From: an uncultured bacterium
Lineage (GTDB): Bacteria > Patescibacteriota > Minisyncoccia > Phycocordibacterales > PALSA-1337
Length of the DNA: 64,000 nt
Direction: 5' to 3'
Assembly: GCA_903839725.1 (NCBI GenBank)
Contig: CAIMDG010000002.1
Span: forward strand, 65,078 to 129,077
Shown: piece after piece, positions 1,651-62,492 of the stretch
Layout of the letters: each line of letters begins with the position of its first letter
How positions within the stretch are numbered: position 1 is the first letter of the stretch
Notes under the pieces: generated by a model
The model's input: only the letters and a program-made list of their open reading frames with translations
Told to the model about the DNA's origin: nothing
The model's database searches: none
Translations under genes and position numbers: made by a program

Positions 1651-3042
<1,392 letters not shown>

Positions 3043-7965: not shown

Positions 7966-8562
7966 ATGAAAACTTACAAACGCACACGTATTATCGCTAG
8001 TTTAGCTCTTTTGAGTTCACTTACCCTTACTGGAGTTACTTTTGCTGCCACTGACGTACATCCAACAAAAACAAATAGCTCAATATCACGAAGTATTGGA
8101 GCACGTAGTATGAAATCGCGCACAGCAACAAGTACACAAACGTTCAGGAAACGTGAAAATGCTTCGAGTACTCCCCAATTTAGCCACAGATCAGCAACAA
8201 GCACTCCTACAGTTGTTGGTACAGTTACTGCAGTCACTGGCAATAGCTTTACCGTAGTTCGTGCCGGTCGTCCTCAATTCACAATCAATTCAAGAGGTAA
8301 AAGTGCTTCAACAACACCTGCAAGGATAATTCCTGCAACAGCAACAACAACATTTACTGTCAACGTAACAAGTGGTACCACCTATATGAAAAATGGAAAA
8401 CTTGATTCATTGACTGATGTTACTGTTGGATCATTTGTCGCTATTACAGGAACACTTGATACAAATACCAATACCATCACTGCTCTTGGTGTTCATCTCA
8501 CAGACAAACCATCAAAAGCTCTCAAAAACGGTTCCACCAAAATCAAAGGAGCGAAAAAATAG
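7966..8562 (+). CDS. secreted Ser/Thr-rich protein of unknown function
   Basis: N-terminal signal peptide 'IIASLALLSSLTLTGVTFAA'. Low-complexity S/T-rich body. Confidence 0.5.
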   Translation: MKTYKRTRIIASLALLSSLTLTGVTFAATDVHPTKTNSSISRSIGARSMKSRTATSTQTFRKRENASSTPQFSHRSATSTPTVVGTVTAVTGNSFTVVRAGRPQFTINSRGKSASTTPARIIPATATTTFTVNVTSGTTYMKNGKLDSLTDVTVGSFVAITGTLDTNTNTITALGVHLTDKPSKALKNGSTKIKGAKK

Positions 8563-8586
8563 CAAACCAAAAAACTTATAATGTTC

Positions 8587-8715
8587 CACGTCGTAGAGGA
8601 GGGGGTGCCATATTCATTTTTTGTACAAGTTTGTAAACACTGTGGTACGCGATGTAATGTAAGTGTTTCTAAACTTGTACAAAAAATGAATATGGCACCC
8701 CCTCCTCTACGCGTG
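8587..8715. repeat. Family-1 ~125-bp palindromic intergenic element, copy 1 (inverted orientation relative to copies 2 and 3)
   Basis: ~45-bp near-perfect inverted arms '...GGAGGGGGTGCCATATTCATTTTTTGTACAAGTTT' around a ~38-bp non-palindromic core. The core's reverse complement matches the cores at 48105-48142 and 53566-53602. Confidence 0.8.
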
Positions 8716-8773
8716 TTTGACAATGAATCATTTTTGGTTTGCTATTTTAGCGCTTAAATGCTAGAGTATTTTC

Positions 8774-10958: not shown

Positions 10959-11210
10959 CTAACCTAGTAGACGTATTTTCTCTTCTCGACTCATCCTCTT
11001 TAACTCACCTTCTCGGGCGCGAACTTTTGAATAAGTCTTATGCTTTTCTGAATATTTCAAAACAACTGGTCTTCTGATTTTTGTGTAGTGCGCACCAGAC
11101 TTCAAATGATTGTGTGCGTGCAAACGTTTCTCAAGGTCGGTAGTAGAACCGACATATAGAGTGGTGTCGGCACATTCGAGAATATATACGTAATAGATTA
11201 TTTTTTTCAT
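10959..11210 (-). CDS. GIY-YIG nuclease family protein (UPF0213/YhbQ-like)
   Basis: '[29 protein letters not shown]' is a GIY-YIG motif. 83 aa. Confidence 0.7.
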
Positions 11211-16578: not shown

Positions 16579-16720
16579 CGAATCACAGCGGGTATGCAGT
16601 ATGTGACAGTCGAAACATCCGTGACGAACTAATATGAATGTCTGAAGAACACAATAATGTAACGATATCCCGCTGGGAATTGTTTCGACTGTCACATACT
16701 GCATACCCGCTGTGATTTCG
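16579..16720. repeat. Family-2 element copy A: conserved ~63-nt core flanked by perfect 39-bp copy-specific inverted repeats
   Basis: Arms 16579-16617 and 16681-16720 are exact reverse complements. The core '...ATATGAATGTCTGAAGAACACAATAATGTAACGATATCCCGCTGGGAAT' is homologous to the core at 35608-35679. Confidence 0.8.
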
Positions 16721-26456: not shown

Positions 26457-28289
26457 CTATTTTCTCTTTCTTTCCTTTGCAGCTTTCATAAACTCAGTAA
26501 ACAATGGGTGTGGTGTGAGAGGTCGAGCCAAGAATTCTGGATGAAATTGTGTACCGAGGAAAAACGGATGCACTTCACGTGGCAATTCAGCAATTTCCAT
26601 AAGTGTGCCATCAGGAGACTTTCCAGAGAATACGAGACCTGCCTTCTCAAGCTTTTCAATATACTTTGGATTGACCTCGTAGCGATGACGATGACGCTCT
26701 TTGATTGTAGCTGTAGGCTTCGTCAACTTATTCAAACCAACATATGAATACGCATCTTGCGCAACTGATCCTTTCAACAATTTCGCTGGATATAAGCCCA
26801 GACGCATTGAAGCACCATACTGACCTTCAGCCAATTTCTTCTTCTGGTCAGGCATAATATCTATAACAAGGTGAGGTGCTTTTTCATCGATTTCAGCCGT
26901 ATTCGCACCATTCAAGCCAACAACATTACGAGCGTACTCGATGGTCATGAGTTGCATACCATAGCATAGGCCAAAGTATGGAATCTTGTTTTCGCGACAG
27001 TAGCGAATCACATTAAGCTTCCCTTCAATACCTGATTCTCCAAATCCCCCCGGAACTATAATTCCGTCCATACTGTCGAGTAAGGCGAAAGCAGAGTTTT
27101 CGACGGGTCGAGGACTGTCCGAGCGTAACGCTAGTGGAGCGAGTTCCGCAGACCCCGAGAAAACTGCTGCTTTCGCCTTACTCATAACTTCAAAATCACG
27201 GGAATTAATAGTGTGTATGATGGGCTTAACTTTTACGATATGACCAGAGAATTTGATAGCTTCGAGTACAGACATGTAACTATCAGAAAGAATAAAATCA
27301 CCAGTATTAAAATATTTTCCAACGATAGCAATATTGAGCGGACGATCATCATGATCTTTGATACCTCGAGCCATTTTTTTCCATTCTTGGAATGTATCAG
27401 AAGTCTTCACTGCAGGAAGTGACAATGTATCAAGTAGTATTTCTGCAAGTTTATCTTTCTCAAAATTAACGGGTACATCGTATATACTCTTAATATCTGG
27501 TGCGGATATCACACGTTCAATCGGAATATTACATGCAACGGCAATCTTCTCTTTACGACGATCATCGAGTGGTGTTGCTGCACGCGCAATAATGATATCG
27601 GTATTCACGCCATATGAAGCCAACTGATGAACTGCATTTTGCGTTGGACGTGATTTCATTTCACCGAGAGCTCCTGGAGTTGGAAGGTATGAAACCATGA
27701 TGAATACCACATCATTTGGATGACGCATCTTGAGTACACGCGCAGCTTCGATGAACATGACGTTACCGTAGTCACCAACTGTGCCACCAATCTCAATAAT
27801 TGAAATCTGCGACTTATTTATTTTTGCAGCGTGTTCAAAACGCTCAACAATATTATCGCGAATATGTGGAATAGCTTCGACACATTTACCTCCATATTTG
27901 AGTGCGCGCTCTTTTTCGATCACTTCACGGTAGACCATACCACTCGTAATATAATCATGTGGCGAAAGATCTCGTCCAAGGAATCGCTCATAATTCCCCA
28001 TATCCTGATCAGTTTCCAATCCAGAATTCAAAACAAATGCTTCACCGTGTTCCGTTGGGTTCATGGTACCTGCATCAACATTTAAATACGGATCAACTTT
28101 AACCAAATTAACCGCAAATCCTTTTGCAACCAAAATAGTACCAATCGAAGAACTGGCAATGCCCTTTCCTACACCGGACATAACACCGCCGATGACAAAA
28201 ATATATTTATGGTGGGGCTTAGAAATCGCTGGCGTTTTTTTCTTCGCTTTGAGGGGGACGACCTTGGCTCGTGTGGCCATTCGTTTCAT
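26457..28289 (-). CDS. pyrG: CTP synthase with Lys-rich N-terminal extension
   Basis: 'GGTVGDYGNVMFIEA' synthetase domain and glutamine amidotransferase 'GLCYGMQ'. About 40 extra basic residues at the N-terminus. Confidence 0.9.
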   Translation of the reverse strand: MKRMATRAKVVPLKAKKKTPAISKPHHKYIFVIGGVMSGVGKGIASSSIGTILVAKGFAVNLVKVDPYLNVDAGTMNPTEHGEAFVLNSGLETDQDMGNYERFLGRDLSPHDYITSGMVYREVIEKERALKYGGKCVEAIPHIRDNIVERFEHAAKINKSQISIIEIGGTVGDYGNVMFIEAARVLKMRHPNDVVFIMVSYLPTPGALGEMKSRPTQNAVHQLASYGVNTDIIIARAATPLDDRRKEKIAVACNIPIERVISAPDIKSIYDVPVNFEKDKLAEILLDTLSLPAVKTSDTFQEWKKMARGIKDHDDRPLNIAIVGKYFNTGDFILSDSYMSVLEAIKFSGHIVKVKPIIHTINSRDFEVMSKAKAAVFSGSAELAPLALRSDSPRPVENSAFALLDSMDGIIVPGGFGESGIEGKLNVIRYCRENKIPYFGLCYGMQLMTIEYARNVVGLNGANTAEIDEKAPHLVIDIMPDQKKKLAEGQYGASMRLGLYPAKLLKGSVAQDAYSYVGLNKLTKPTATIKERHRHRYEVNPKYIEKLEKAGLVFSGKSPDGTLMEIAELPREVHPFFLGTQFHPEFLARPLTPHPLFTEFMKAAKERKRK

Positions 28290-35558: not shown

Positions 35559-35580
35559 AAATAGATTATATAACAAAAAG

Positions 35581-35706
35581 AACACCCTCGCATGTGTATT
35601 GGTCCGCAACTCCGTGGTTATTTTAAAATATGTGTCTAAAGAAAAATGTAATGAAATAATATCCAGCTGGGAATATTACGGACCAATACACATGCGAGGG
35701 TGTTCT
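35581..35706. repeat. Family-2 element copy B: conserved core flanked by perfect 27-bp copy-specific inverted repeats
   Basis: Arms 'GAACACCCTCGCATGTGTATTGGTCCG' / 'CGGACCAATACACATGCGAGGGTGTTC'. The core '...ATATGTGTCTAAAGAAAAATGTAATGAAATAATATCCAGCTGGGAAT' matches the copy A core. Confidence 0.8.
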
Positions 35707-37501: not shown

Positions 37502-37547
37502 GTTGAAGATTGTAACAGCGAGAAGGAGGAAGGGCAAGAAGGGGGAG

Positions 37548-37642
37548 CGATGCAAATTACGAATGAACGCGAATGACGCGAATACATCGCGTCCGGATGC
37601 GACGTATTCGCGTCATTCGCATACATTTGCGGATTTGCATCG
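37548..37642. repeat. P-family palindrome copy 3 (38-bp arms, 19-bp spacer) between ligA stop and gatC start
   Basis: Left 'CGATGCAAATTACGAATGAACGCGAATGACGCGAATAC'. Right 'TATTCGCGTCATTCGCATACATTTGCGGATTTGCATCG'. Confidence 0.75.
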
Positions 37643-37658
37643 GCACCCCTTCTTGCCA

Positions 37659-39749
<2,091 letters not shown>

Positions 39750-43350: not shown

Positions 43351-43938
43351 TTAGAGTTTTGAACTGAGACAATATAATTTTGATGTTTTGTATGCTGGAT
43401 CACTGTCAAAACATACTAAATGATATGAATCTTGCGGAAGTATAGGATGAGTAACATCTCCAAACTGTCTAATTTCAAGCAGACCTTCTGCAGCATTATT
43501 AAAACTGTCTGATTGAATAGAACTATTTTGTTCAAGAGTGGTACGGAGTAAAAAAGCATTTTTGGCAGTATTTCTTACATATTCATAATATGTACTAGTC
43601 CCCGGATCCTTCGGAACTGTCCCTAAATAATCTCCCAAAGTGACTTGCTGTGGTGATATGTTAGGGCACGATGTACCCAAATTAAAATCAGCCTTTCCTG
43701 CTGTTTCTGATGCCGGATACTCTCTACATCTATCAAAATAATACGCCAATGCAACCTGAATATTTCCCAAATCAGACACCCTCTTTCCATCTCGAGACTT
43801 TGCTTTTGCACTACTGAAATTTGCCACAACGACAGTTGTTAATATGCCGATGATGGCAACAACTATCATGAGTTCTATAAGTGAGAAGGCGCGGTTTTGA
43901 CAAGGTCTACCCTTGTTGGAGAATAATTTGAATTTCAT
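43351..43938 (-). CDS. type IV pilin-like protein whose leader peptide is encoded by a REP copy
   Basis: 'RAFSLIELMIVVAIIGIL'. The leader 'NKGRPCQNRA' is translated from the REP at 43899-43916. Confidence 0.65.
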   Translation of the reverse strand: MKFKLFSNKGRPCQNRAFSLIELMIVVAIIGILTTVVVANFSSAKAKSRDGKRVSDLGNIQVALAYYFDRCREYPASETAGKADFNLGTSCPNISPQQVTLGDYLGTVPKDPGTSTYYEYVRNTAKNAFLLRTTLEQNSSIQSDSFNNAAEGLLEIRQFGDVTHPILPQDSYHLVCFDSDPAYKTSKLYCLSSKL

Positions 43939-44654
43939 GGATAGAATTATATCACAGTTGTTTTGACAAGGCCTACCCTTGTCGATTAAGTATATTACCC
44001 TGAACTCGAATTGTTCCTACATAATCCATGAAGCTTGAATATACATATCTTATTGAACATTCGAACGCTTCAACCGGATACTCTCTTCGTGCGTCTTTGG
44101 TCATATCTGGTTCATCAATACCGTATGGATTCAAGTGAATATATTGAATCAAGTATCTAAAATAATTATCATCACTAACATGTTTTGATTTGTATTGCCC
44201 TTGAAATATGGTCCCTGAATGATCATATTTGTGGTTAAAGTATGTCGAATAACTCGTACATATTTTATGTATAAATGTATATATACCATTCTCTACTTTC
44301 TCTTTTAATGCTAGATGGAAATGGTTTGGCATTAAACAGTATGCTTTTATGTCGACAAGGGTAGACCTTGTAAACAAAAACATATGATTTGGTTTCAATT
44401 TTTTAAAATCTAACTTATGAGTATCATTGGCAGCATATAATAAACACATAAAACGTTCATAATCACTCGTATCAAGAAATATAGGTGCTTTGTGAGCCCC
44501 TCGGTTATACACATGGTAGTATTCATTAATTATATGCATAAGTAATTCAACAGGGCGACAAAGTCTACCCTTGTTTAATTACAATATCACTAACGTATGA
44601 AGATTCTGTGAAAAAAGAATCAAAATTGAATGAAGAACAAGGGTAGGCCTTGTT
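43899..44654. repeat. Cluster of five REP-like 18-bp hairpin repeats around the RAYT gene
   Basis: Copies at 43899-43916, 43965-43983, 44354-44371 (inverted), 44557-44574 and 44637-44654 (inverted). Consensus 'GACAAGG(T/C)CTACCCTTGT' with stem ACAAGG/CCTTGT. Confidence 0.75.
43973..44539 (-). mobile_element. IS200/IS605-family Y1 transposase, REP-associated (RAYT-like)
   Basis: 'YHVYNRG' N-terminal motif, HuH 'MPNHFHLAL' and C-terminal Tyr region 'YLIQYIHLNPYG'. Flanked on both sides by REP hairpins. AT-rich. Confidence 0.7.
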
Positions 44655-48007: not shown

Positions 48008-48060
48008 GAATATATTATACAGGAGAAATCGTGGTGACGTTATCCACATTACATAGTATC

Positions 48061-48186
48061 CAAAACCCACAGGAGGGGTGCATACTCATTTTTTACACAA
48101 GTTTAGAGACATGTACATTACTCAGTGTACCTCAATGTTTACAAACTTGTGTAAAAAATGAGTATGCACCCCTCCTGTGGGTTTTG
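48061..48186. repeat. Family-1 palindromic intergenic element, copy 2
   Basis: Arms 'CAAAACCCACAGGAGGGGTGCATACTCATTTTTTACACAAGTTT' and its reverse complement. Core 'AGAGACATGTACATTACTCAGTGTACCTCAATGTTTAC'. Confidence 0.8.
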
Positions 48187-48224
48187 TCACCAATATAACG
48201 TCACTACCATTTCTTAATTTCCTA

Positions 48225-53500: not shown

Positions 53501-53522
53501 GTGAGATTATAAAATTCAAACA

Positions 53523-53646
53523 CAACCTCAGCGGGAGGCAGTGTACTCATTTTTCGTACAAGTTTAGAGACATGTACATTACACCGCGTACCTCAATGTT
53601 TACAAACTTGTACGAAAAATGAGTACACTGCCTCCCGCTGAGGTTG
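53523..53646. repeat. Family-1 palindromic intergenic element, copy 3
   Basis: Arms 'CAACCTCAGCGGGAGGCAGTGTACTCATTTTTCGTACAAGTTT' and its reverse complement. Core 'AGAGACATGTACATTACACCGCGTACCTCAATGTTTAC'. Confidence 0.8.
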
Positions 53647-53652
53647 GTCCCC

Positions 53653-54846
53653 CTATTTTATAATCTTCACGAATCTGCGCTTGCCTACTTTGAGTACAAC
53701 TGTTTCTGTTGGTGTGAAATTTGGATCAGTTATTTTACTATCGTCGTTTTTGACTGCACCATCGAGTACGAGACGTCTCCATTCTGTCTTTGATTCAACA
53801 ATACCTGATTTGATGAGAACTTCGGCGAGTGATTCATCTGCACCAAGCTGTATTTCCTGAATATCTTCAGGCACACCACCTTTTGCAAACGTCTTTTCGA
53901 AGGCTTCTTCGGCTGACTTTGCGGCAGGTTCGCCGTGAAAACGCTTCACAATATCAAATGCAAGATGAGCTTTTGCCTGACGTGGACCTTCTTTCATCAA
54001 GGAATCTTTTTCTGTTGTAGAAATACGAGTACAATTCAAGAATAAAGGTTCAAGCATAGGATCCGGTAGTGACATGACTGCACCAAATAAACTATTTGAT
54101 GGTTGGTCTATGAATACTCCTGTACCATTGCTTTTGGACATAAGCTCGCCTGTTTTGGGATTGGCAATCAAATTCAAAGCAATAACAAACTTGTCTTTAT
54201 TTTTCATACGCTTAAGCAATGTTCTTCCTGCAAGCGCATTAAATGTCTGATCTGTACCACAAATCTCAATATCAACATCCATGGCAACACTGTCATACCC
54301 TTGCATAAGTGGATACATAAATTCATGGAGATGAATCGGAGTGTTTTCCTTGAGACGTTTCGCAAACATGTCACGCTCTAACATCTGCTGAACAGTAAAG
54401 TTTGATGCGAGATTGACCACATCAGTAAATGAAAGTTTTGATAACCATTCTGAATTGTATTTTATAAGTGGAGGATTTTCTTTATCATCAAAATTAAGCA
54501 ATGGCTTCACTTGAGCTACCCAGCCAGCAACATTTTTCTTTACATCTTCAACGGTCAATTGTTTTCGAGTCGCAGCCTTATCACTTGGATCCCCTATTTG
54601 TGCAGTAAAATCACCAAATAAAATGATCACTTCATGCCCAAGCTGACGAAGTTCTTCGGCAAACATAATATTTTTTGCATGTCCCAAATGAAGAGCTGTT
54701 GAGGTTGGGTCAAAACCGATATACATACGGAGACGCTCACCTGATGTAAGCCTCTTCAGTAACTCTGCCTTGGTAGGCAAAATATCCACCACGGTTCCAC
54801 GTGCGAATATCTCTTCTATACGTTGTATATCTGTTATAACTTTCAT
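53653..54846 (-). CDS. tyrS: tyrosine--tRNA ligase
   Basis: 'GFDPTSTALHLGH' (HIGH), 'KMSKS'-like 'ELMSKSNGT' and a C-terminal S4 domain. Confidence 0.85.
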   Translation of the reverse strand: MKVITDIQRIEEIFARGTVVDILPTKAELLKRLTSGERLRMYIGFDPTSTALHLGHAKNIMFAEELRQLGHEVIILFGDFTAQIGDPSDKAATRKQLTVEDVKKNVAGWVAQVKPLLNFDDKENPPLIKYNSEWLSKLSFTDVVNLASNFTVQQMLERDMFAKRLKENTPIHLHEFMYPLMQGYDSVAMDVDIEICGTDQTFNALAGRTLLKRMKNKDKFVIALNLIANPKTGELMSKSNGTGVFIDQPSNSLFGAVMSLPDPMLEPLFLNCTRISTTEKDSLMKEGPRQAKAHLAFDIVKRFHGEPAAKSAEEAFEKTFAKGGVPEDIQEIQLGADESLAEVLIKSGIVESKTEWRRLVLDGAVKNDDSKITDPNFTPTETVVLKVGKRRFVKIIK

Positions 54847-57515: not shown

Positions 57516-57518
57516 GTG

Positions 57519-57605
57519 CGGAGAGAGTGGGATTCGAACCCACGGTTCCAATAAAGGAACGGCGGTTTAGTAAACCGCTGCCTTAAACCACTCAGCCATC
57601 TCTCC
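57519..57605 (-). tRNA. type II (long variable arm) tRNA, Ser-like acceptor, apparent anticodon ACU
   Basis: Acceptor GGAGAGA/TCTCTCC, variable hairpin 'GTTCC-TTTATT-GGAAC', T-loop 'TTCGAAT'. The anticodon arm GCGGT-'TTACTAA'-ACCGC has A at position 34. Confidence 0.6.
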
Positions 57606-58223: not shown

Positions 58224-58312
58224 TGGAGACGTGGTGGAGTGGTCTAACATACCTCTTTGCTAAAGAGGCAGGCCTCTTATAGGGCCTCGAGGGTTCGAAT
58301 CCCTCCGTCTCC
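58224..58312 (+). tRNA. tRNA-Ser (anticodon GCU)
   Basis: Acceptor GGAGACG/CGTCTCC, anticodon loop 'TTGCTAA', long variable arm, T-loop 'TTCGAAT'. Confidence 0.85.
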
Positions 58313-58549
58313 GCAAAATACCGAGCGAAGCGAGTGTATTTTCGCGGGACGAAGCGAGGCGACTGCTCGCCTCGCGTGAGGGATTCGAAAAGGTTGAGTA
58401 TATGGCGCGGAACGAAGTGAGCACCATACGAAACCTGTACCGAAGCTGTAAGCTTCGAATCCTGATTTAGGAAAATCACCTACTGGGCTCCTTCTTCGCC
58501 AATAGACCGAGACTATTCATGCATATCTATATAATGTATATTCTTATTC

Positions 58550-60152: not shown

Positions 60153-62492
60153 ATGAATATGTCTCCAGATATACGCGTTTCAGAATATTTCAGGCTCACG
60201 CCGATACAAAAAGACGCACTCAGAAAAATGCGTATCTCAACAGTTCATGACCTTCTCTACCATTTCCCTGTGCGTTATGGTGATACCGCCGAAACACAAA
60301 GTATCGACTCTCTCAAAAAAGGTGATACTGCCGTAATCTTCGGCAAAATTTCCGGCCTCAAAGCAAGTAAGGGATTCAAAACTAAAATGACCATGGCATC
60401 TGCCACTATCGAAGACGAAAGTGGTCGCATCCAAGCCGTCTGGTTCAATCAACCCTACATCGCCAAAATGACCCCCGAAGGAGCGTACGTCCGAATCGAG
60501 GGTAAGATAAGTCAGAGAAGAAGCAAACCTGTTAAACCTGCAGATGAGGTGAATCGTCCCCAAGAGATGATTGAAACCGACACTGCGCAGCGCGACGGCG
60601 CGAGCATAGCGCAAAGCCAGCAGGCTTTGACGCGCGTCGGTGGCAATCATTCTCTTGGGGACGATTCAAATAATCTCTACTTTTCTAACCCGAAGATCGA
60701 AGTCGTCGATAAATTACCCATCGGCGTCGGTGATTCCCTCTTCGGAGACCAATCAGAAGTTCATACCATGTACCCCGTGTATTCTGAGTCACGAGGTATC
60801 ACTTCTATTTGGATCTATCACGCCATTCAAAAACTTTTTAAATCAGGAGTTCTCGACACTATTCCTGAATGTATACCCGAACACATTCTCGAAAAATATC
60901 ATTTGCCTGGAATAAAAACGGCACTCATATGGATACACACTCCACTCAAAAATGATGATGCACTTTCTGCACGCAAACGTTTTTCATTTGATGAAATATT
61001 CACCATTCAACTCGGCAAGCAACAAGCGCGTAGAGCGTACGAGAAACATCCATCATTCAAGATCGACATTGAAATGAAACATGTCCATGAATTCGTGCGC
61101 CGTTTTCCATTCACGGCGACTGAAGCACAAACTCATGCAATCGAAGCGATCGTACACGATATGCAACGTGGTCAAGCAATGTCACGACTCCTCGAAGGTG
61201 ATGTAGGTTCAGGTAAAACAGCGGTTGCTGCCGCAGCAGCGTATGCAGTCATGACTTCAAAAGGAATCTTGTCTGAAAACCAAAATCAAGTGACTCACCT
61301 ACCACCTTCCACTCTGTTACAAATCGCATACATGTGCCCTACCGAAATTCTCGCAACGCAACACTTCGAATCATTTATCCAATATTTTTCATACATGCCT
61401 ATCCAGATCGGTCTCATCACCGGTTCAGGGTGTCGAAAATTCCCGTCAAAAATAAATCCAAAAGGTTGGACGGATATATCTCGTACACAATTATTAAAAT
61501 GGGTTGAAAATGGCGAGATCAATGTTCTTATCGGCACACACGCACTCATTCAATCATCAGTCGTATTCAAAAATATGGCGCTCGCCATCATCGATGAACA
61601 ACATCGCTTTGGAACTGCACAACGTAGAAAACTCATTCGTAAAGATTCGATTGCGCCACATTTACTCTCGATGACCGCAACTCCTATTCCTCGCACACTT
61701 GCACTCACTATGTATGGTGACCTCGATCTCACCCTTCTCGACCAAAGTCCTGCAGGTCGAAAACCCATCATCACCGAGCTCGTCATTCCTGCAAAACGAG
61801 ATGAAATGTACGCAAAAATACGCCATGAATTGGAAGCTGGTCGTCAACTCTACGTCATCTGTCCACGTATCAATGAGCCTGATCCTGATAAAGAAGCAGC
61901 TATCATTGCCAAGTCGGTCAAGGAAGAAGCCAAGCGTCTCAAAAGCCTCATCTTCCCTCAATATGAGATCGGCGTGCTTCATAGCAAAATGAAACCTGCT
62001 GAAAAAGATGCTGTTATGGCAGAGTTCAAGAATGGAACAATAGATATTCTTTGCGCAACATCAGTGGTTGAAGTTGGCGTGAATGTTCCTAATGCTACAG
62101 TCATTATTATTGAAGGAGCAGAACGATTTGGTCTTGCACAACTCCATCAGCTTCGTGGTCGTGTTCAGAGAAGTAGTCACCAAGCTTACTGCTATGCTTT
62201 CACTGAAACAACATCACAAAAATCTATTGATCGTTTGAAGTCATTACAAACTGCCAAGAATGGTTTCGAGCTCGCTGAGCTCGATCTGTCCGCACGTGGT
62301 GCAGGAGAATTGTCTGGCACGCGACAATGGGGAGTATCCGACATTGCTATGGAAGCATTACAAAATCTCAAAATGGTTGAAGCGGCTCGAACTGAAGCAA
62401 CACAACTGATAGATGAAGATCCTACATTGAAAAAATACCCACTTTTGAAACAAGCGGTTGAAGCACATAAGGTAACGAGTCATTTTGAATAA
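60153..62492 (+). CDS. recG: ATP-dependent DNA helicase RecG
   Basis: Wedge domain, Walker A 'DVGSGKT', 'DEQHRFG', 'TATPIPRTL' and 'QLRGRVQR'. Confidence 0.9.
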   Translation: MNMSPDIRVSEYFRLTPIQKDALRKMRISTVHDLLYHFPVRYGDTAETQSIDSLKKGDTAVIFGKISGLKASKGFKTKMTMASATIEDESGRIQAVWFNQPYIAKMTPEGAYVRIEGKISQRRSKPVKPADEVNRPQEMIETDTAQRDGASIAQSQQALTRVGGNHSLGDDSNNLYFSNPKIEVVDKLPIGVGDSLFGDQSEVHTMYPVYSESRGITSIWIYHAIQKLFKSGVLDTIPECIPEHILEKYHLPGIKTALIWIHTPLKNDDALSARKRFSFDEIFTIQLGKQQARRAYEKHPSFKIDIEMKHVHEFVRRFPFTATEAQTHAIEAIVHDMQRGQAMSRLLEGDVGSGKTAVAAAAAYAVMTSKGILSENQNQVTHLPPSTLLQIAYMCPTEILATQHFESFIQYFSYMPIQIGLITGSGCRKFPSKINPKGWTDISRTQLLKWVENGEINVLIGTHALIQSSVVFKNMALAIIDEQHRFGTAQRRKLIRKDSIAPHLLSMTATPIPRTLALTMYGDLDLTLLDQSPAGRKPIITELVIPAKRDEMYAKIRHELEAGRQLYVICPRINEPDPDKEAAIIAKSVKEEAKRLKSLIFPQYEIGVLHSKMKPAEKDAVMAEFKNGTIDILCATSVVEVGVNVPNATVIIIEGAERFGLAQLHQLRGRVQRSSHQAYCYAFTETTSQKSIDRLKSLQTAKNGFELAELDLSARGAGELSGTRQWGVSDIAMEALQNLKMVEAARTEATQLIDEDPTLKKYPLLKQAVEAHKVTSHFE

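What the first reader, a model, noticed from the sequence alone, without database searches (positions are those of the whole stretch)
8587..8715. Family-1: three ~125-bp palindromic intergenic elements with a conserved asymmetric core (8587-8715, 48061-48186, 53523-53646)
Each copy has ~45-bp near-perfect inverted arms with a shared inner part, '(G)TGC(C/A)ATA(C/T)TCATTTTT(T/C)(G/A)(T/C)ACAAGTTT', and a variable outer part. The 38-nt central core is not palindromic and is conserved: 'AGAGACATGTACATTAC..GCGTACCTCAATGTTTAC'. Copy 1 is inverted relative to copies 2 and 3. Arm substitutions between copies are compensated on the opposite arm (TACACAAG/CTTGTGTA versus CGTACAAG/CTTGTACG), so pairing is maintained. 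All three lie just after stop codons in intergenic gaps. This is an ERIC/Correia/RPE-like family of mobile terminator-type palindromes, not known to me from CPR genomes.
Basis: seen in the sequence. Interest (0 to 1): 0.7.

Follow-up and report, generated by a model that had tools for sequence, protein, structure and literature searches.

The report
Dispersed hairpin DNA repeats in CPR bacterium
The three ~125-bp palindromes are real members of a spreading family of hairpin DNA repeats in a tiny-genome (Paceibacteria/CPR) bacterium. They have a conserved 38-base loop on perfectly paired but freely varying stems, sit inside the terminator hairpins of ordinary genes, and differ in build from the known bacterial repeat families.

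Summary
Three copies lie at the stated coordinates, each with 41-44 bp perfect arms and a conserved asymmetric 38-nt loop (0 chance matches expected).

The family extends beyond the window:
- A degenerate copy lies about 100 nt left of the window start.
- A further copy lies in the MFS-rpsB gap of the same species.
- Copies occur at other loci in two sister species.
- Related hairpins with 36-39-nt loops occur in more distant Paceibacteria.

Stem positions 1-8 and 13-22 (counted outward from the loop) and the loop are sequence-conserved. Every other stem position varies with full compensation: 484 Watson-Crick pairs, 3 G·T, 4 C·A. This points to DNA-level pairing rather than RNA selection.

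Each window copy is nested in an outer 10-18 bp inverted repeat, which for copies 1 and 3 overlaps the 3' end of a neighbouring gene. At one orthologous site, three sister species keep the same outer stem but carry different, even flipped, loop cassettes. Other sites show presence, absence or replacement.

There are no conserved ends, no target duplication, no U-tract, and no Rfam, phage or plasmid match.

Best reading: a non-autonomous, DNA-level mobile or converting hairpin cassette that occupies terminator apices. It is a new variant of palindromic repeat elements, and the mobilising enzyme is unknown.

The parts
8587..8715 (-). Family-1 copy 1, reverse orientation. Arms 8592-8632 / 8671-8711 (41 bp perfect, plus a 4-bp extension after a 1-nt bulge). 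38-nt loop 8633-8670.
   Evidence: covariance model R1, 133 bits.
8556..8573 (.). Left arm of the outer 18-bp inverted repeat that encloses copy 1 (AAAATAGCAAACCAAAAA). It includes the last codons and the TAG stop of gene 7966-8562.
   Evidence: longest flank inverted repeat 18 bp; 0 of 5000 shuffles reach it.
8731..8748 (.). Right arm of the outer inverted repeat around copy 1 (TTTTTGGTTTGCTATTTT). It is T-rich, so together with the left arm it resembles a native intrinsic terminator whose loop now holds copy 1.
48061..48186 (+). Family-1 copy 2. Arms 48061-48104 / 48143-48186 (44 bp perfect, A-tract/T-tract at the base). Loop 48105-48142. It lies between the pilB stop and the promoter of the response-regulator gene.
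   Evidence: 134 bits. Absent at the orthologous gap of L129 and L007.
48034..48043 (.). Left arm of the outer 10-bp inverted repeat around copy 2 (GTGACGTTAT). It overlaps the conserved -35-like TGTGGATAAC region of the response-regulator promoter on the minus strand.
   Evidence: 6 of 5000 shuffles.
48195..48204 (.). Right arm of the outer inverted repeat around copy 2 (ATAACGTCAC).
53523..53646 (+). Family-1 copy 3. Arms 53523-53565 / 53604-53646 (43 bp perfect). Loop 53566-53603. It lies in the convergent gap between the ComF-like gene and tyrS.
   Evidence: 139 bits. An orthologous copy is in L129.
53504..53515 (.). Left arm of the outer 12-bp inverted repeat around copy 3 (AGATTATAAAAT).
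   Evidence: 0 of 5000 shuffles.
53655..53666 (.). Right arm of the outer inverted repeat around copy 3 (ATTTTATAATCT). It overlaps the last codons of tyrS (53653-54846, minus strand). The same outer repeat exists in L007, which lacks the element. In L129 it is 9 bp, with the coding changes mirrored on the far arm.

Best explanation
Family-1 is a non-autonomous DNA repeat of about 116-126 bp that propagates within a lineage of Paceibacteria (CPR).

Anatomy:
- an asymmetric 38-nt centre;
- two short sequence-conserved stem boxes (stem positions 1-8 and 13-22, counted outward from the loop);
- otherwise free but perfectly complementary stem positions.

Shown:
- It is dispersed at unrelated intergenic sites in at least three sister species.
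- In the window each copy sits in the apex of an outer inverted repeat, and for copies 1 and 3 one arm of that repeat overlaps a gene's 3' end.
- At orthologous sites it is present, absent or replaced by other palindromes.
- At one orthologous site the outer stem is retained while the loop cassette differs in subfamily and in orientation.
- Pairing is maintained as strict Watson-Crick pairs, with no G·U preference and no orientation bias relative to transcription.
- One copy in the same genome is decaying.

Inferred:
- The unit that moves is the apex cassette (the loop plus inner stem).
- It is copied into, or converted between, existing hairpins at the DNA level. This could be gene conversion anchored on the conserved stem boxes, or insertion of a single-stranded hairpin intermediate at hairpin apices.
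- Each new or converted copy has one arm templated on the other, for example by fold-back or template-switch synthesis. That would keep the stems perfect while their sequence drifts.
- The conserved loop and boxes are the recognition determinants for an unidentified trans-acting factor.
- The cell tolerates or benefits from the copies because an apex insertion leaves the terminator's base intact and lengthens the hairpin.
For: Reality and dispersal:
- Three copies in the window, 0 expected by chance.
- Further copies in the same species: L141 1-105 in the MFS-rpsB gap, and a degenerate copy at L136 1012-1129.
- Copies in a sister species with 92% nucleotide identity: after an MFS gene, upstream of rpmF, and upstream of an exonuclease-like gene.
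- A copy in a third species, L129.
- Hairpins of the same geometry (stems 37-44 bp, loops 36-39 nt) in L142, L132, L022, L009 and L105b/L145b, scoring 66-93 bits to model R1 where scored.

Turnover at orthologous sites:
- The pilB-regulator gap holds Family-1 in the window species, a different palindrome in L129 and in L132, a small hairpin in L007, and nothing in L009 or L134.
- The copy after the MFS gene is absent in the GROS species.
- The tyrS gap of L007 keeps a one-arm-like remnant.

Cassette exchange. In the MFS-rpsB gap, L141 and L145 share an identical 3' outer arm and flank but carry 1a versus 1b loops. The GROS species carries a mosaic loop in the opposite orientation.

Nested placement. 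Outer inverted repeats of 18, 10 and 12 bp are reached by 0, 6 and 0 of 5000 shuffles.

DNA-level pairing:
- 22 of 39 pairs change on both sides and none on one side.
- The tally is 484 Watson-Crick, 3 G·T, 4 C·A.
- Free stem positions differ at 11 of 21 between the orthologous copy 3 and L129, while 4-fold sites differ at 0.43-0.46. Conserved boxes differ at 1 of 18 and the loop at 7 of 38.
- Orthologous copies are not each other's nearest relatives.

Orientation relative to flanking transcription is mixed.

Assemblies break at the copies.
Against: - No transposition intermediate, empty-site/filled-site pair with exact junctions, or excision read was seen. The same-species contigs are about 100% identical, so recent movement is not directly shown.
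- No target-site duplication, conserved ends or autonomous partner was found.
- The only candidate HUH enzyme nearby, the RAYT-like Y1 transposase at 43973-44539, is flanked by a different 17-nt hairpin. That hairpin changes with the enzyme between species, whereas the Family-1 boxes do not.
- A clade-wide habit of long perfect hairpins at 3' gaps could mean host selection for strong terminators, with 'families' arising by conversion alone.
- Loop conservation could equally reflect an RNA or protein-binding function for the host.
Confidence: 0.55

Rival explanations
1. Host terminator or insulator modules. The hairpins are functional bidirectional transcription terminators or mRNA 3'-end stabilisers selected by the host in very compact genomes. 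'Families' arise by occasional duplication or conversion, not by selfish mobility.
For: - All three window copies lie just after stop codons inside terminator-like outer repeats.
- Several copies have an A-tract/T-tract base, as in CAAAACC...GGTTTTG.
- Nearly every relative has some long perfect hairpin in the convergent tyrS-ComF gap.
- In the pilB-regulator gap a hairpin of changing sequence precedes a conserved promoter. This suggests functional replacement.
Against: - The consensus scan calls no whole-element terminator. Its one terminator-like hit is a 5-bp stem within the outer arm of copy 3. Most copies have no U-tract directly after the stem.
- Copies also lie in divergent 5' gaps (MFS-rpsB; aldolase-PfkB) and between co-directional pilT and pilC.
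- A 38-nt sequence-conserved asymmetric loop and two conserved stem boxes are not needed for termination.
- There is no G·U tolerance, which RNA-level selection would allow.
- A decaying copy exists.
Confidence: 0.2
2. REPIN-like elements mobilised by the resident RAYT-like Y1 (HUH) transposase at 43973-44539. The enzyme would recognise the single-stranded hairpin or loop and copy the element, as proposed for REP/REPIN-RAYT systems.
For: - The window encodes a single-copy Y1_Tnp protein (Pfam E = 7.8e-8; NCBIfam REP_Tyr_transpos E = 1.3e-9, below the curated cut-off).
- It is syntenic between the pilin genes in L007 and L129. Homologs also occur in L030 and L049.
- HUH enzymes act on single-stranded hairpins.
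- Both the flanking 17-nt hairpin and Family-1 have ACAAG...CTTGT next to the loop.
- The REPIN paper also reports compensatory changes in hairpins (PMC3116915).
Against: - The enzyme is flanked by its own 17-nt GTAG hairpins, not by Family-1. Those hairpins occur nowhere else in the 64 kb.
- The hairpins differ in each species, co-varying with the enzyme: ACAAGG..., CGAGG..., CGCAGG..., CCGAGG... The Family-1 boxes are unchanged between the window species and L129.
- REPINs have conserved ends and a variable centre. Family-1 is the reverse.
- L007 has the enzyme but only a remnant of the element in 21 kb. L009 has a related hairpin and no enzyme in the locus.
Confidence: 0.1
3. A family of structured non-coding RNA genes. 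These would be long hairpin RNAs with a functional 38-nt apical loop, for example an RNase III-processed or protein-binding RNA.
For: - Very stable folds on either strand.
- The loop and two stem boxes are sequence-conserved across species while the rest of the stem keeps only its pairing.
- The loop is more conserved than 4-fold sites between orthologous copies (7 of 38 versus about 0.45).
Against: - No Rfam family, only sub-threshold miRNA-hairpin noise.
- No promoter-like site shared by the copies.
- Orientation relative to neighbours is mixed, and at one orthologous site the loop is flipped.
- G·U pairs are no more frequent than C·A mismatches (3 versus 4 in 492 pairs).
- The multi-copy, turnover and decay pattern is typical of repeats.
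Confidence: 0.1

Closest known systems
REPIN / REP-RAYT systems (Bertels & Rainey 2011, PMC3116915)
   Same: - Hairpin-forming intergenic repeat of about 100-120 nt.
- Many copies per genome.
- Compensatory changes between the two arms.
- No target duplication.
- Vertical persistence with a within-genome population.
- A single-copy Y1 transposase is present in the genome.
   Different: - REPINs have two invariant terminal 16-mers (REPs) and a less conserved spacer, and they flank the RAYT gene.
- Family-1 has a conserved centre and variable termini.
- Family-1 does not flank the RAYT-like gene, which has its own 17-nt hairpins.
Correia/NEMIS, ERIC/IRU, RUP, RPE and similar bacterial MITE-like palindromic repeats (from my own knowledge of these families)
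   Same: - Size of about 100-150 bp.
- Imperfect-to-perfect palindrome.
- Intergenic, often near gene 3' ends.
- Folds in RNA or DNA.
- Can influence transcript ends.
   Different: - Those families have terminal inverted repeats conserved across copies. Correia and typical MITEs also have target-site duplications (TA), and many are linked to a DDE transposase.
- Family-1 has neither.
- Family-1 stems are perfect and drift freely, and it is nested in other hairpins.
IS200/IS605-derived non-autonomous elements (palindrome-associated transposable elements; from my own knowledge)
   Same: - No terminal inverted repeats and no target duplication.
- Dependence on single-strand hairpins is plausible.
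- A Y1 transposase gene is present.
   Different: - Those carry two different subterminal hairpins (left and right ends) and conserved cleavage tetranucleotides at the ends.
- Family-1 is one hairpin whose ends vary.
Parvovirus-type terminal hairpins (rolling-hairpin 'flip/flop'; mechanistic analogy only, from my own knowledge)
   Same: - One arm templated on the other would keep a roughly 120-nt hairpin perfectly paired while the asymmetric centre can occur in either orientation. This matches the perfect arms and the flipped loop at an orthologous site.
   Different: - Those are telomeres of linear single-stranded DNA genomes processed by their own HUH nuclease.
- Family-1 copies are internal chromosomal sites, and no such nuclease has been linked to them.
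Intrinsic (Rho-independent) terminators
   Same: - Position after stop codons.
- GC-rich stem base.
- A/T tracts at the base of some copies.
   Different: - Stems of 40+ bp with a 38-nt conserved loop.
- No U-tract in most copies, and no whole-element consensus call.
- Also found in 5' gaps.

Membership tests
MITE of the Correia/ERIC type | Terminal inverted repeats whose sequence is conserved among copies | tested here: not met
   The outermost 17-21 stem positions are the most variable part. Conserved boxes are internal, at positions 1-8 and 13-22 from the loop.
MITE of the Correia/ERIC type | Short direct target-site duplication flanking each copy | tested here: not met
   The flanks of 6 copies were aligned. 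None has a direct repeat adjacent to the ends.
MITE of the Correia/ERIC type | Multiple dispersed copies in intergenic DNA, about 100-400 bp | tested here: met
   At least 5 copies in about 80 kb of the window species. Further copies lie at non-orthologous loci in sister species.
MITE of the Correia/ERIC type | A related autonomous insertion sequence carrying the same ends | tested here: not met
   No solo arm or arm-flanked gene in the window or in the 131 loci fetched up to that point. Whole genomes were not available.
REPIN | Two inverted REP sequences with invariant terminal 16-mers and a less conserved spacer | tested here: not met
   Definition taken from PMC3116915. Family-1 has variable ends and a conserved centre.
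REPIN | Copies flank the cognate RAYT gene | tested here: not met
   The RAYT-like gene at 43973-44539 is flanked by ACAAGGyCTACCCTTGT hairpins only. The nearest Family-1 copy is 3.5 kb away.
REPIN | Hairpin with compensatory changes between the arms | tested here: met
   22 of 39 pairs change on both sides and 99.6% of cells are paired.
IS200/IS605-derived non-autonomous element | Distinct subterminal hairpins at the left and right ends, with conserved cleavage tetranucleotides | tested here: not met
   There is a single hairpin and no conserved bases at or beyond the ends. TTAC and TCAA occur in the loop of most copies but not in L129.
Intrinsic terminator | GC-rich stem with a short loop, followed directly by a U-tract | tested here: not met
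   The consensus scan calls no whole-element terminator at any of the three loci. Its single hit at copy 3 is a 5-bp stem within the outer arm. Loops are 38 nt. Only the outer repeat of copy 1 has a T-tail.
Any Rfam RNA family | Score at or above the family's gathering threshold | tested here: not met
   Only tRNAs pass in the window. In E-value mode the best hits are miRNA-precursor models at 25-29 bits against thresholds of 56-94.
Integron attC site | Conserved outer R''/R' boxes (RYYYAAC...GTTRRRY) with a variable centre and extrahelical bases | tested here: not met
   By inspection of the aligned ends, the ends are not conserved, the centre is conserved and the stems are perfect. No integrase was seen next to any copy.

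The most novel reading that the evidence does not exclude
These are a previously undescribed kind of mobile unit: an 'apex cassette'. It would consist of a 38-nt loop plus short stem boxes. It would copy itself, in either orientation, into the tip of pre-existing DNA hairpins, chiefly gene terminators. One arm would be rebuilt from the other by fold-back or template-switch synthesis, or by an HUH-type hairpin-transfer reaction. Stems would then stay perfectly complementary while drifting at the neutral rate, and terminator hairpins across this CPR clade would progressively grow into long perfect palindromes.
Probability: 0.22. Interest if true: 0.8.

Novelty: new variant of a known kind. Interest (0 to 1): 0.58.

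Why it matters
Paceibacteria and other CPR bacteria have very small, tightly packed genomes. To my knowledge, and in the literature I could search, no dispersed repeat family has been described for them.

In this window at least seven of the largest intergenic gaps are filled by long palindromes of three types. Related genomes show a different palindrome at the same gaps. Hairpin elements are therefore a major and fast-moving component of the little non-coding DNA these organisms have.

The architecture is a conserved centre on freely drifting but strictly Watson-Crick stems, nested in terminator hairpins, with a loop cassette that is swapped and flipped within a retained outer stem. This offers a natural system for studying how palindromes are kept perfect at the DNA level, and how mobile DNA can live in terminator loops without harming genes.

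There is also a practical point. These elements break metagenome assemblies of CPR genomes and could serve as strain markers.

Tried and rejected
- **Rfam.** Gathering mode on the whole window, and E-value mode on copy 2 and on the second hairpin family, gave only tRNAs and sub-threshold miRNA-like hairpin noise.
- **Exact-pattern scans with the loop core.** 0 hits in 185,579 species-representative genomes and 0 in IMG/VR. The JGI metagenome scan gave 42 hits, of which only 3 (all from Ga0194062) were true members. The rest were chance matches from the variable gaps.
- **BLASTN of copy 2 against phage and plasmid collections.** No match.
- **Promoter and terminator consensus scans.** Nothing shared by the copies.
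- **Short ORFs starting at the ATG in the 3' arm** (13-19 codons, read directly). Rejected: there is no Shine-Dalgarno sequence, the peptides are not conserved, and the same ATG occurs on both strands because of the palindrome.
- **Target-site duplications and conserved flanking tetranucleotides.** None. An 8-nt direct repeat near L089 is not adjacent to the ends and was treated as chance.
- **Solo arms or an autonomous partner.** None in the window or the loci.
- **Using G·U versus C·A asymmetry to find a transcribed strand.** The counts are too low and balanced, 3 versus 4.
- **Link to the RAYT-like gene.** Its flanking hairpins co-vary with the enzyme across species, but the Family-1 boxes do not.
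- **A 91-98-nt stretch 97-100% identical between species with 83% identity.** It turned out to be tRNA-Thr, not an element.
- **Extending the window with end genes.** This gave only about 1-2.5 kb. One look-up found no record.
- **Integron attC, Xer/dif-like site, invertible promoter.** Considered and dropped on anatomy: conserved centre, 38-bp spacer, no recombinase nearby.
Full report
**1. The observation**

- Copy 1 has 41-bp perfect arms (8592-8632 / 8671-8711). A further 4 bp after a 1-nt bulge give 8587-8715.
- Copy 2 has 44-bp arms (48061-48104 / 48143-48186).
- Copy 3 has 43-bp arms (53523-53565 / 53604-53646).
- Each encloses a 38-nt non-palindromic centre, and copy 1 is inverted relative to the other two.

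Two 24-25-nt core patterns hit only these three places, with 0.00 matches expected from shuffles. As RNA, either strand folds at about -90 kcal/mol (z = -14 to -17). As DNA, the + strand of each copy folds at about -56 to -58 kcal/mol. The window has no Rfam match other than eight tRNAs. In E-value mode only miRNA-precursor models appear, far below their thresholds.

**2. Organism and gene context**

The flanking genes are housekeeping genes:
- a DUF5666-like protein and an RluA-type pseudouridine synthase around copy 1;
- pilB and a response regulator around copy 2;
- a ComF-like phosphoribosyltransferase and tyrS, convergent, around copy 3.

TyrRS relatives place the window in Paceibacterota/Parcubacteria (CPR). 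The best species-representative genome has 85% TyrRS identity (L007). The same species occurs in many ENA assemblies whose sequence, elements included, is about 100% identical. Several contigs start or stop inside a copy, as expected for a repeat or palindrome.

**3. More members**

- The loop core has no exact match in 185,579 representative genomes or in IMG/VR.
- A JGI metagenome scan gave three true copies, all from Ga0194062. They lie at unrelated loci: after an MFS transporter gene next to rpsB-tsf, upstream of rpmF near nusB, and upstream of an exonuclease-like gene.
- A species with 90% TyrRS identity (L129, GROS21-1 samples) has an orthologous copy in the tyrS-ComF gap.
- Covariance model R1, built from six copies, recovers all copies. 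It also scores hairpins of the same geometry with other loop sequences: L105 1337-1452 at 76 bits, L022 at 73 bits, L009 at 66 bits and L142 at 93 bits.
- A hairpin in L132 has the same geometry, a 37-bp stem and a 39-nt loop.
- R1 also finds a degenerate copy in the window's own genome, 99-216 nt to the left of window position 1 (L136 1012-1129). This copy has five arm mismatches, mostly transversions, and about ten loop changes.
- The window species has a further copy in its MFS-rpsB gap (L141 1-105).
- Across 13 members the loops are 36-39 nt and the stems 37-44 bp.

**4. Anatomy from the comparison**

Counting stem positions outward from the loop:
- Positions 1-8 (ACAAGTTT / AAACTTGT) and 13-22 (GTAYTCATTT / AAATGARTAC) are essentially invariant.
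- Positions 9-12 and 23-43 vary freely.
- The loop is 90-100% conserved within the 1a subfamily.

Every variable position is compensated:
- 22 of 39 pairs change on both sides, none on one side only, and 99.6% of cells pair. 0 of 500 shuffles reach this, and slid controls give 37-53%.
- Over 12 intact members the tally is 484 Watson-Crick pairs, 3 G·T, 4 C·A and 1 other.

An RNA under selection would be expected to tolerate G·U far more than C·A. The balance seen here, and the absence of any one-sided change, point to pairing that is enforced on the DNA, or equally on both strands.

Orientation relative to neighbouring transcription is mixed. Copies 1 and 2 are antisense, while L105a, L089 and L009 are sense.

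**5. Placement**

There is no target-site duplication and no conserved base at or beyond the ends. Instead each window copy is nested in a further inverted repeat, separated from the element by a short unpaired bubble:

| Copy | Outer repeat | Length | Shuffles reaching it (of 5000) |
|---|---|---|---|
| 1 | AAAATAGCAAACCAAAAA / TTTTTGGTTTGCTATTTT | 18 bp | 0 |
| 2 | GTGACGTTAT / ATAACGTCAC | 10 bp | 6 |
| 3 | AGATTATAAAAT / ATTTTATAATCT | 12 bp | 0 |

(All.)

- The left outer arm of copy 1 contains the last codons and the stop codon of the upstream gene, and its right arm runs into a T-rich tail.
- The right outer arm of copy 3 is the 3' end of tyrS.
- The outer repeat of copy 3 also exists in L007, which lacks the element.
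- In L129 a 9-bp version exists, and the coding changes are mirrored on the far arm.

For copies 1 and 3, then, the element sits in the apex of what looks like a native terminator hairpin. The consensus scans call no whole-element terminator or shared promoter. The one terminator-like hit is a 5-bp stem within the outer arm of copy 3.

Outside the window, members also lie in divergent 5' gaps (MFS-rpsB; aldolase-PfkB) and between pilT and pilC inside an operon.

**6. Evolutionary behaviour**

(a) Turnover.
- The pilB-regulator gap holds Family-1 in the window species, a 'GTATGAAGG' palindrome in L129, a 'CCAAGG' palindrome in L132, a small hairpin in L007, and nothing in L009 or L134. The regulator's promoter is conserved throughout.
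- The copy after the MFS gene in the Ga0194062 species is absent from the GROS species. That species has a 5-6 bp terminator hairpin there instead.
- In L007 the tyrS gap is 44 nt and keeps a one-arm-like remnant, CAGGAGGTGCTGTA. This matches the arm of an unrelated copy, L105a.

(b) An orthologous pair.
- Copy 3 and the L129 copy share the right-hand boundary.
- They differ at 14 of 43 stem positions, all compensated.
- The free outer positions differ at 11 of 21. That is as much as 4-fold degenerate sites in tyrS and pilB (0.43-0.46).
- The boxes differ at 1 of 18 and the loop at 7 of 38.
- Orthologous copies are not nearest relatives. The loop of copy 3 is 1-2 changes from copies in another species but 7 from its ortholog.

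(c) Cassette exchange.
- The rpsB homolog series shows three sister populations. The window species and the Ga0194062/ERZ27300174 species are 92.3% identical in nucleotides over 2.1 kb. The GROS species is 81-83% identical to both.
- All three have a hairpin of about 116 nt in the MFS-rpsB gap.
- The window species and the Ga0194062 species share an identical 3' outer arm (TACACACCCCTGCCACGGTTTT) and flank.
- The former carries a 1a loop in reverse orientation with 1a inner stem. The latter carries a 1b loop (GATAATCGAG...) with a different inner stem.
- The GROS species has compensated-diverged outer arms and a 39-nt mosaic loop in the opposite orientation.
- The exchangeable unit is therefore the apex (the loop plus roughly 12-20 bp of inner stem). 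It can sit either way round inside a vertically inherited outer stem.

(d) One copy in the window genome is visibly decaying.

**7. Interpretation**

What is shown:
- a dispersed, turning-over family;
- a sequence-constrained centre and a structure-only periphery;
- strict Watson-Crick pairing;
- nesting in outer inverted repeats, terminator-like for copies 1 and 3;
- apex exchange and flipping.

What is inferred:
- The element is a non-autonomous DNA-level entity.
- Its apex cassette is copied or converted into hairpin tips. This could be gene conversion anchored on the conserved boxes. Those boxes are present in inverted orientation on both arms, which would explain why either orientation occurs. 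Alternatively a single-stranded hairpin intermediate could insert at the tip.
- One arm is templated on the other, which keeps the stems perfect while they drift.
- Apex insertion leaves the base of the host terminator intact, which would make such sites tolerated or useful.

I give this reading 0.55.

**8. Rivals**

- **Host-selected terminator or insulator modules (0.2).** Supported by the 3' positions and by the clade-wide habit of long perfect hairpins in the tyrS-ComF gap. Weakened by copies in 5' gaps, the missing U-tracts, the conserved loop and the decaying copy.
- **Mobilisation by the resident RAYT-like Y1 transposase at 43973-44539 (0.1).**
  - The gene matches Pfam Y1_Tnp at 7.8e-8 and NCBIfam REP_Tyr_transpos at 1.3e-9, below the cut-off.
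  - Homologs lie at the same locus in L007 and L129 and also occur in L030 and L049, with 61-65% identity.
  - Each homolog is flanked by its own species-specific 15-18-nt hairpin, including a copy inside the ORF.
  - Family-1 does not flank the gene, and its boxes do not co-vary with it.
  - REPINs also have the opposite layout, with conserved ends and a variable spacer (PMC3116915).
- **A structured RNA gene family (0.1).** Not excluded by the loop conservation. Disfavoured by the mixed and flipped orientation, the absence of a shared promoter, the absence of G·U tolerance, and the repeat-like turnover.

**9. Comparison with known elements**

In behaviour it is closest to REPINs and to MITE-like palindromic repeats such as Correia and ERIC. 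It fails their defining features that could be tested: conserved termini, target duplication and RAYT flanking. See the membership table.

Literature searches found nothing on hairpin repeats or MITEs in CPR bacteria. Phage and plasmid collections hold nothing similar.

I rate it a new variant of a known kind, namely bacterial palindromic repeat elements. Its organisation is unusual: conserved centre, variable ends and nesting in terminators.

**10. Limits**

- No complete genome could be scanned, so copy number is extrapolated. About 5-6 copies are seen in about 80 kb.
- No insertion or excision junctions were seen, because all same-species contigs are identical.
- No expression data are available.
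- The exact limits of the exchanged cassette rest on one site whose left arm is cut by a contig end in the window species.

Noticed in passing
window 16581-16717 and 35579-35706 (also L024 7743-7854): A second hairpin family built on the same principle. The perfect stems (27-37 bp) are unrelated. The 58-72-nt loop carries conserved motifs GTGyCTAAAGAA and TCCmGCTGGGAAT, shared with a hairpin in another Parcubacteria genome.
   Followed up: partly
window 1663-1767 and 37527-37663: A third type of long palindrome, built from GCGAAT/GCAAAT-like motifs. One has 37-bp perfect arms with a 31-nt loop. The other is a roughly 137-bp imperfect palindrome with no loop. Relatives carry other motif-repeat palindromes (CCAAGG, GTATGAAGG, AATAACC) or tandem repeats ((CTCTAAC)n, (TAGTC)n) in the same kinds of gaps.
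   Followed up: partly
window 43900-44653: A RAYT-like Y1 (HUH) transposase gene (43973-44539, minus strand) lies between two pilin genes. It is flanked by four copies of a 17-nt GTAG hairpin, ACAAGGGTAGrCCTTGT, and a fifth lies inside its own ORF (44355-44371). Homologs sit at the same locus in L007 and L129 and also occur in L030 and L049. They are only 61-65% identical, although TyrRS is 85-90% identical in L007 and L129. The gene is inverted in L007 and L129. Each has its own hairpin sequence, and where the gene is complete a copy also lies inside the ORF.
   Followed up: partly
window 57518-57605 (minus strand): A tRNA-Ser with anticodon ACT (anticodon loop TTACTAA), about 620 bp from a tRNA-Ser(GCT) at 58225-58314. 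An A34 serine tRNA is unusual for bacteria.
   Followed up: no
window 10959-11210 (minus strand): A small (83 aa) GIY-YIG domain gene is present in some contigs and absent in others that carry the identical RluA-type protein and the same gene order. This suggests a mobile or recently lost nuclease gene.
   Followed up: no
L008-L035, downstream of tyrS: The convergent tyrS-ComF gap holds a long, nearly perfect hairpin of species-specific sequence in many Paceibacteria. Some span 170-200 nt (L020, L027, L011). Long perfect palindromes at gene 3' ends therefore look like a clade-wide habit.
   Followed up: partly
L003 end, L137/L138 start (= window 8593), L139, L131, L105, L141: Metagenome contigs repeatedly begin or end at or inside these hairpins. 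The elements fragment assemblies of these genomes.
   Followed up: no
L142 versus L143, 4595-4630: Two strains of the GROS species carry different small terminator hairpins after the MFS gene (GCTCTC/GAGAGC versus CACTC/GAGTG). The difference is again fully compensated.
   Followed up: no
window 27078-27183 and 60542-60676: Two lower-quality inverted repeats (80-88% complementary) lie inside long ORFs (26457-28289 and recG 60153-62492). They were not examined.
   Followed up: no
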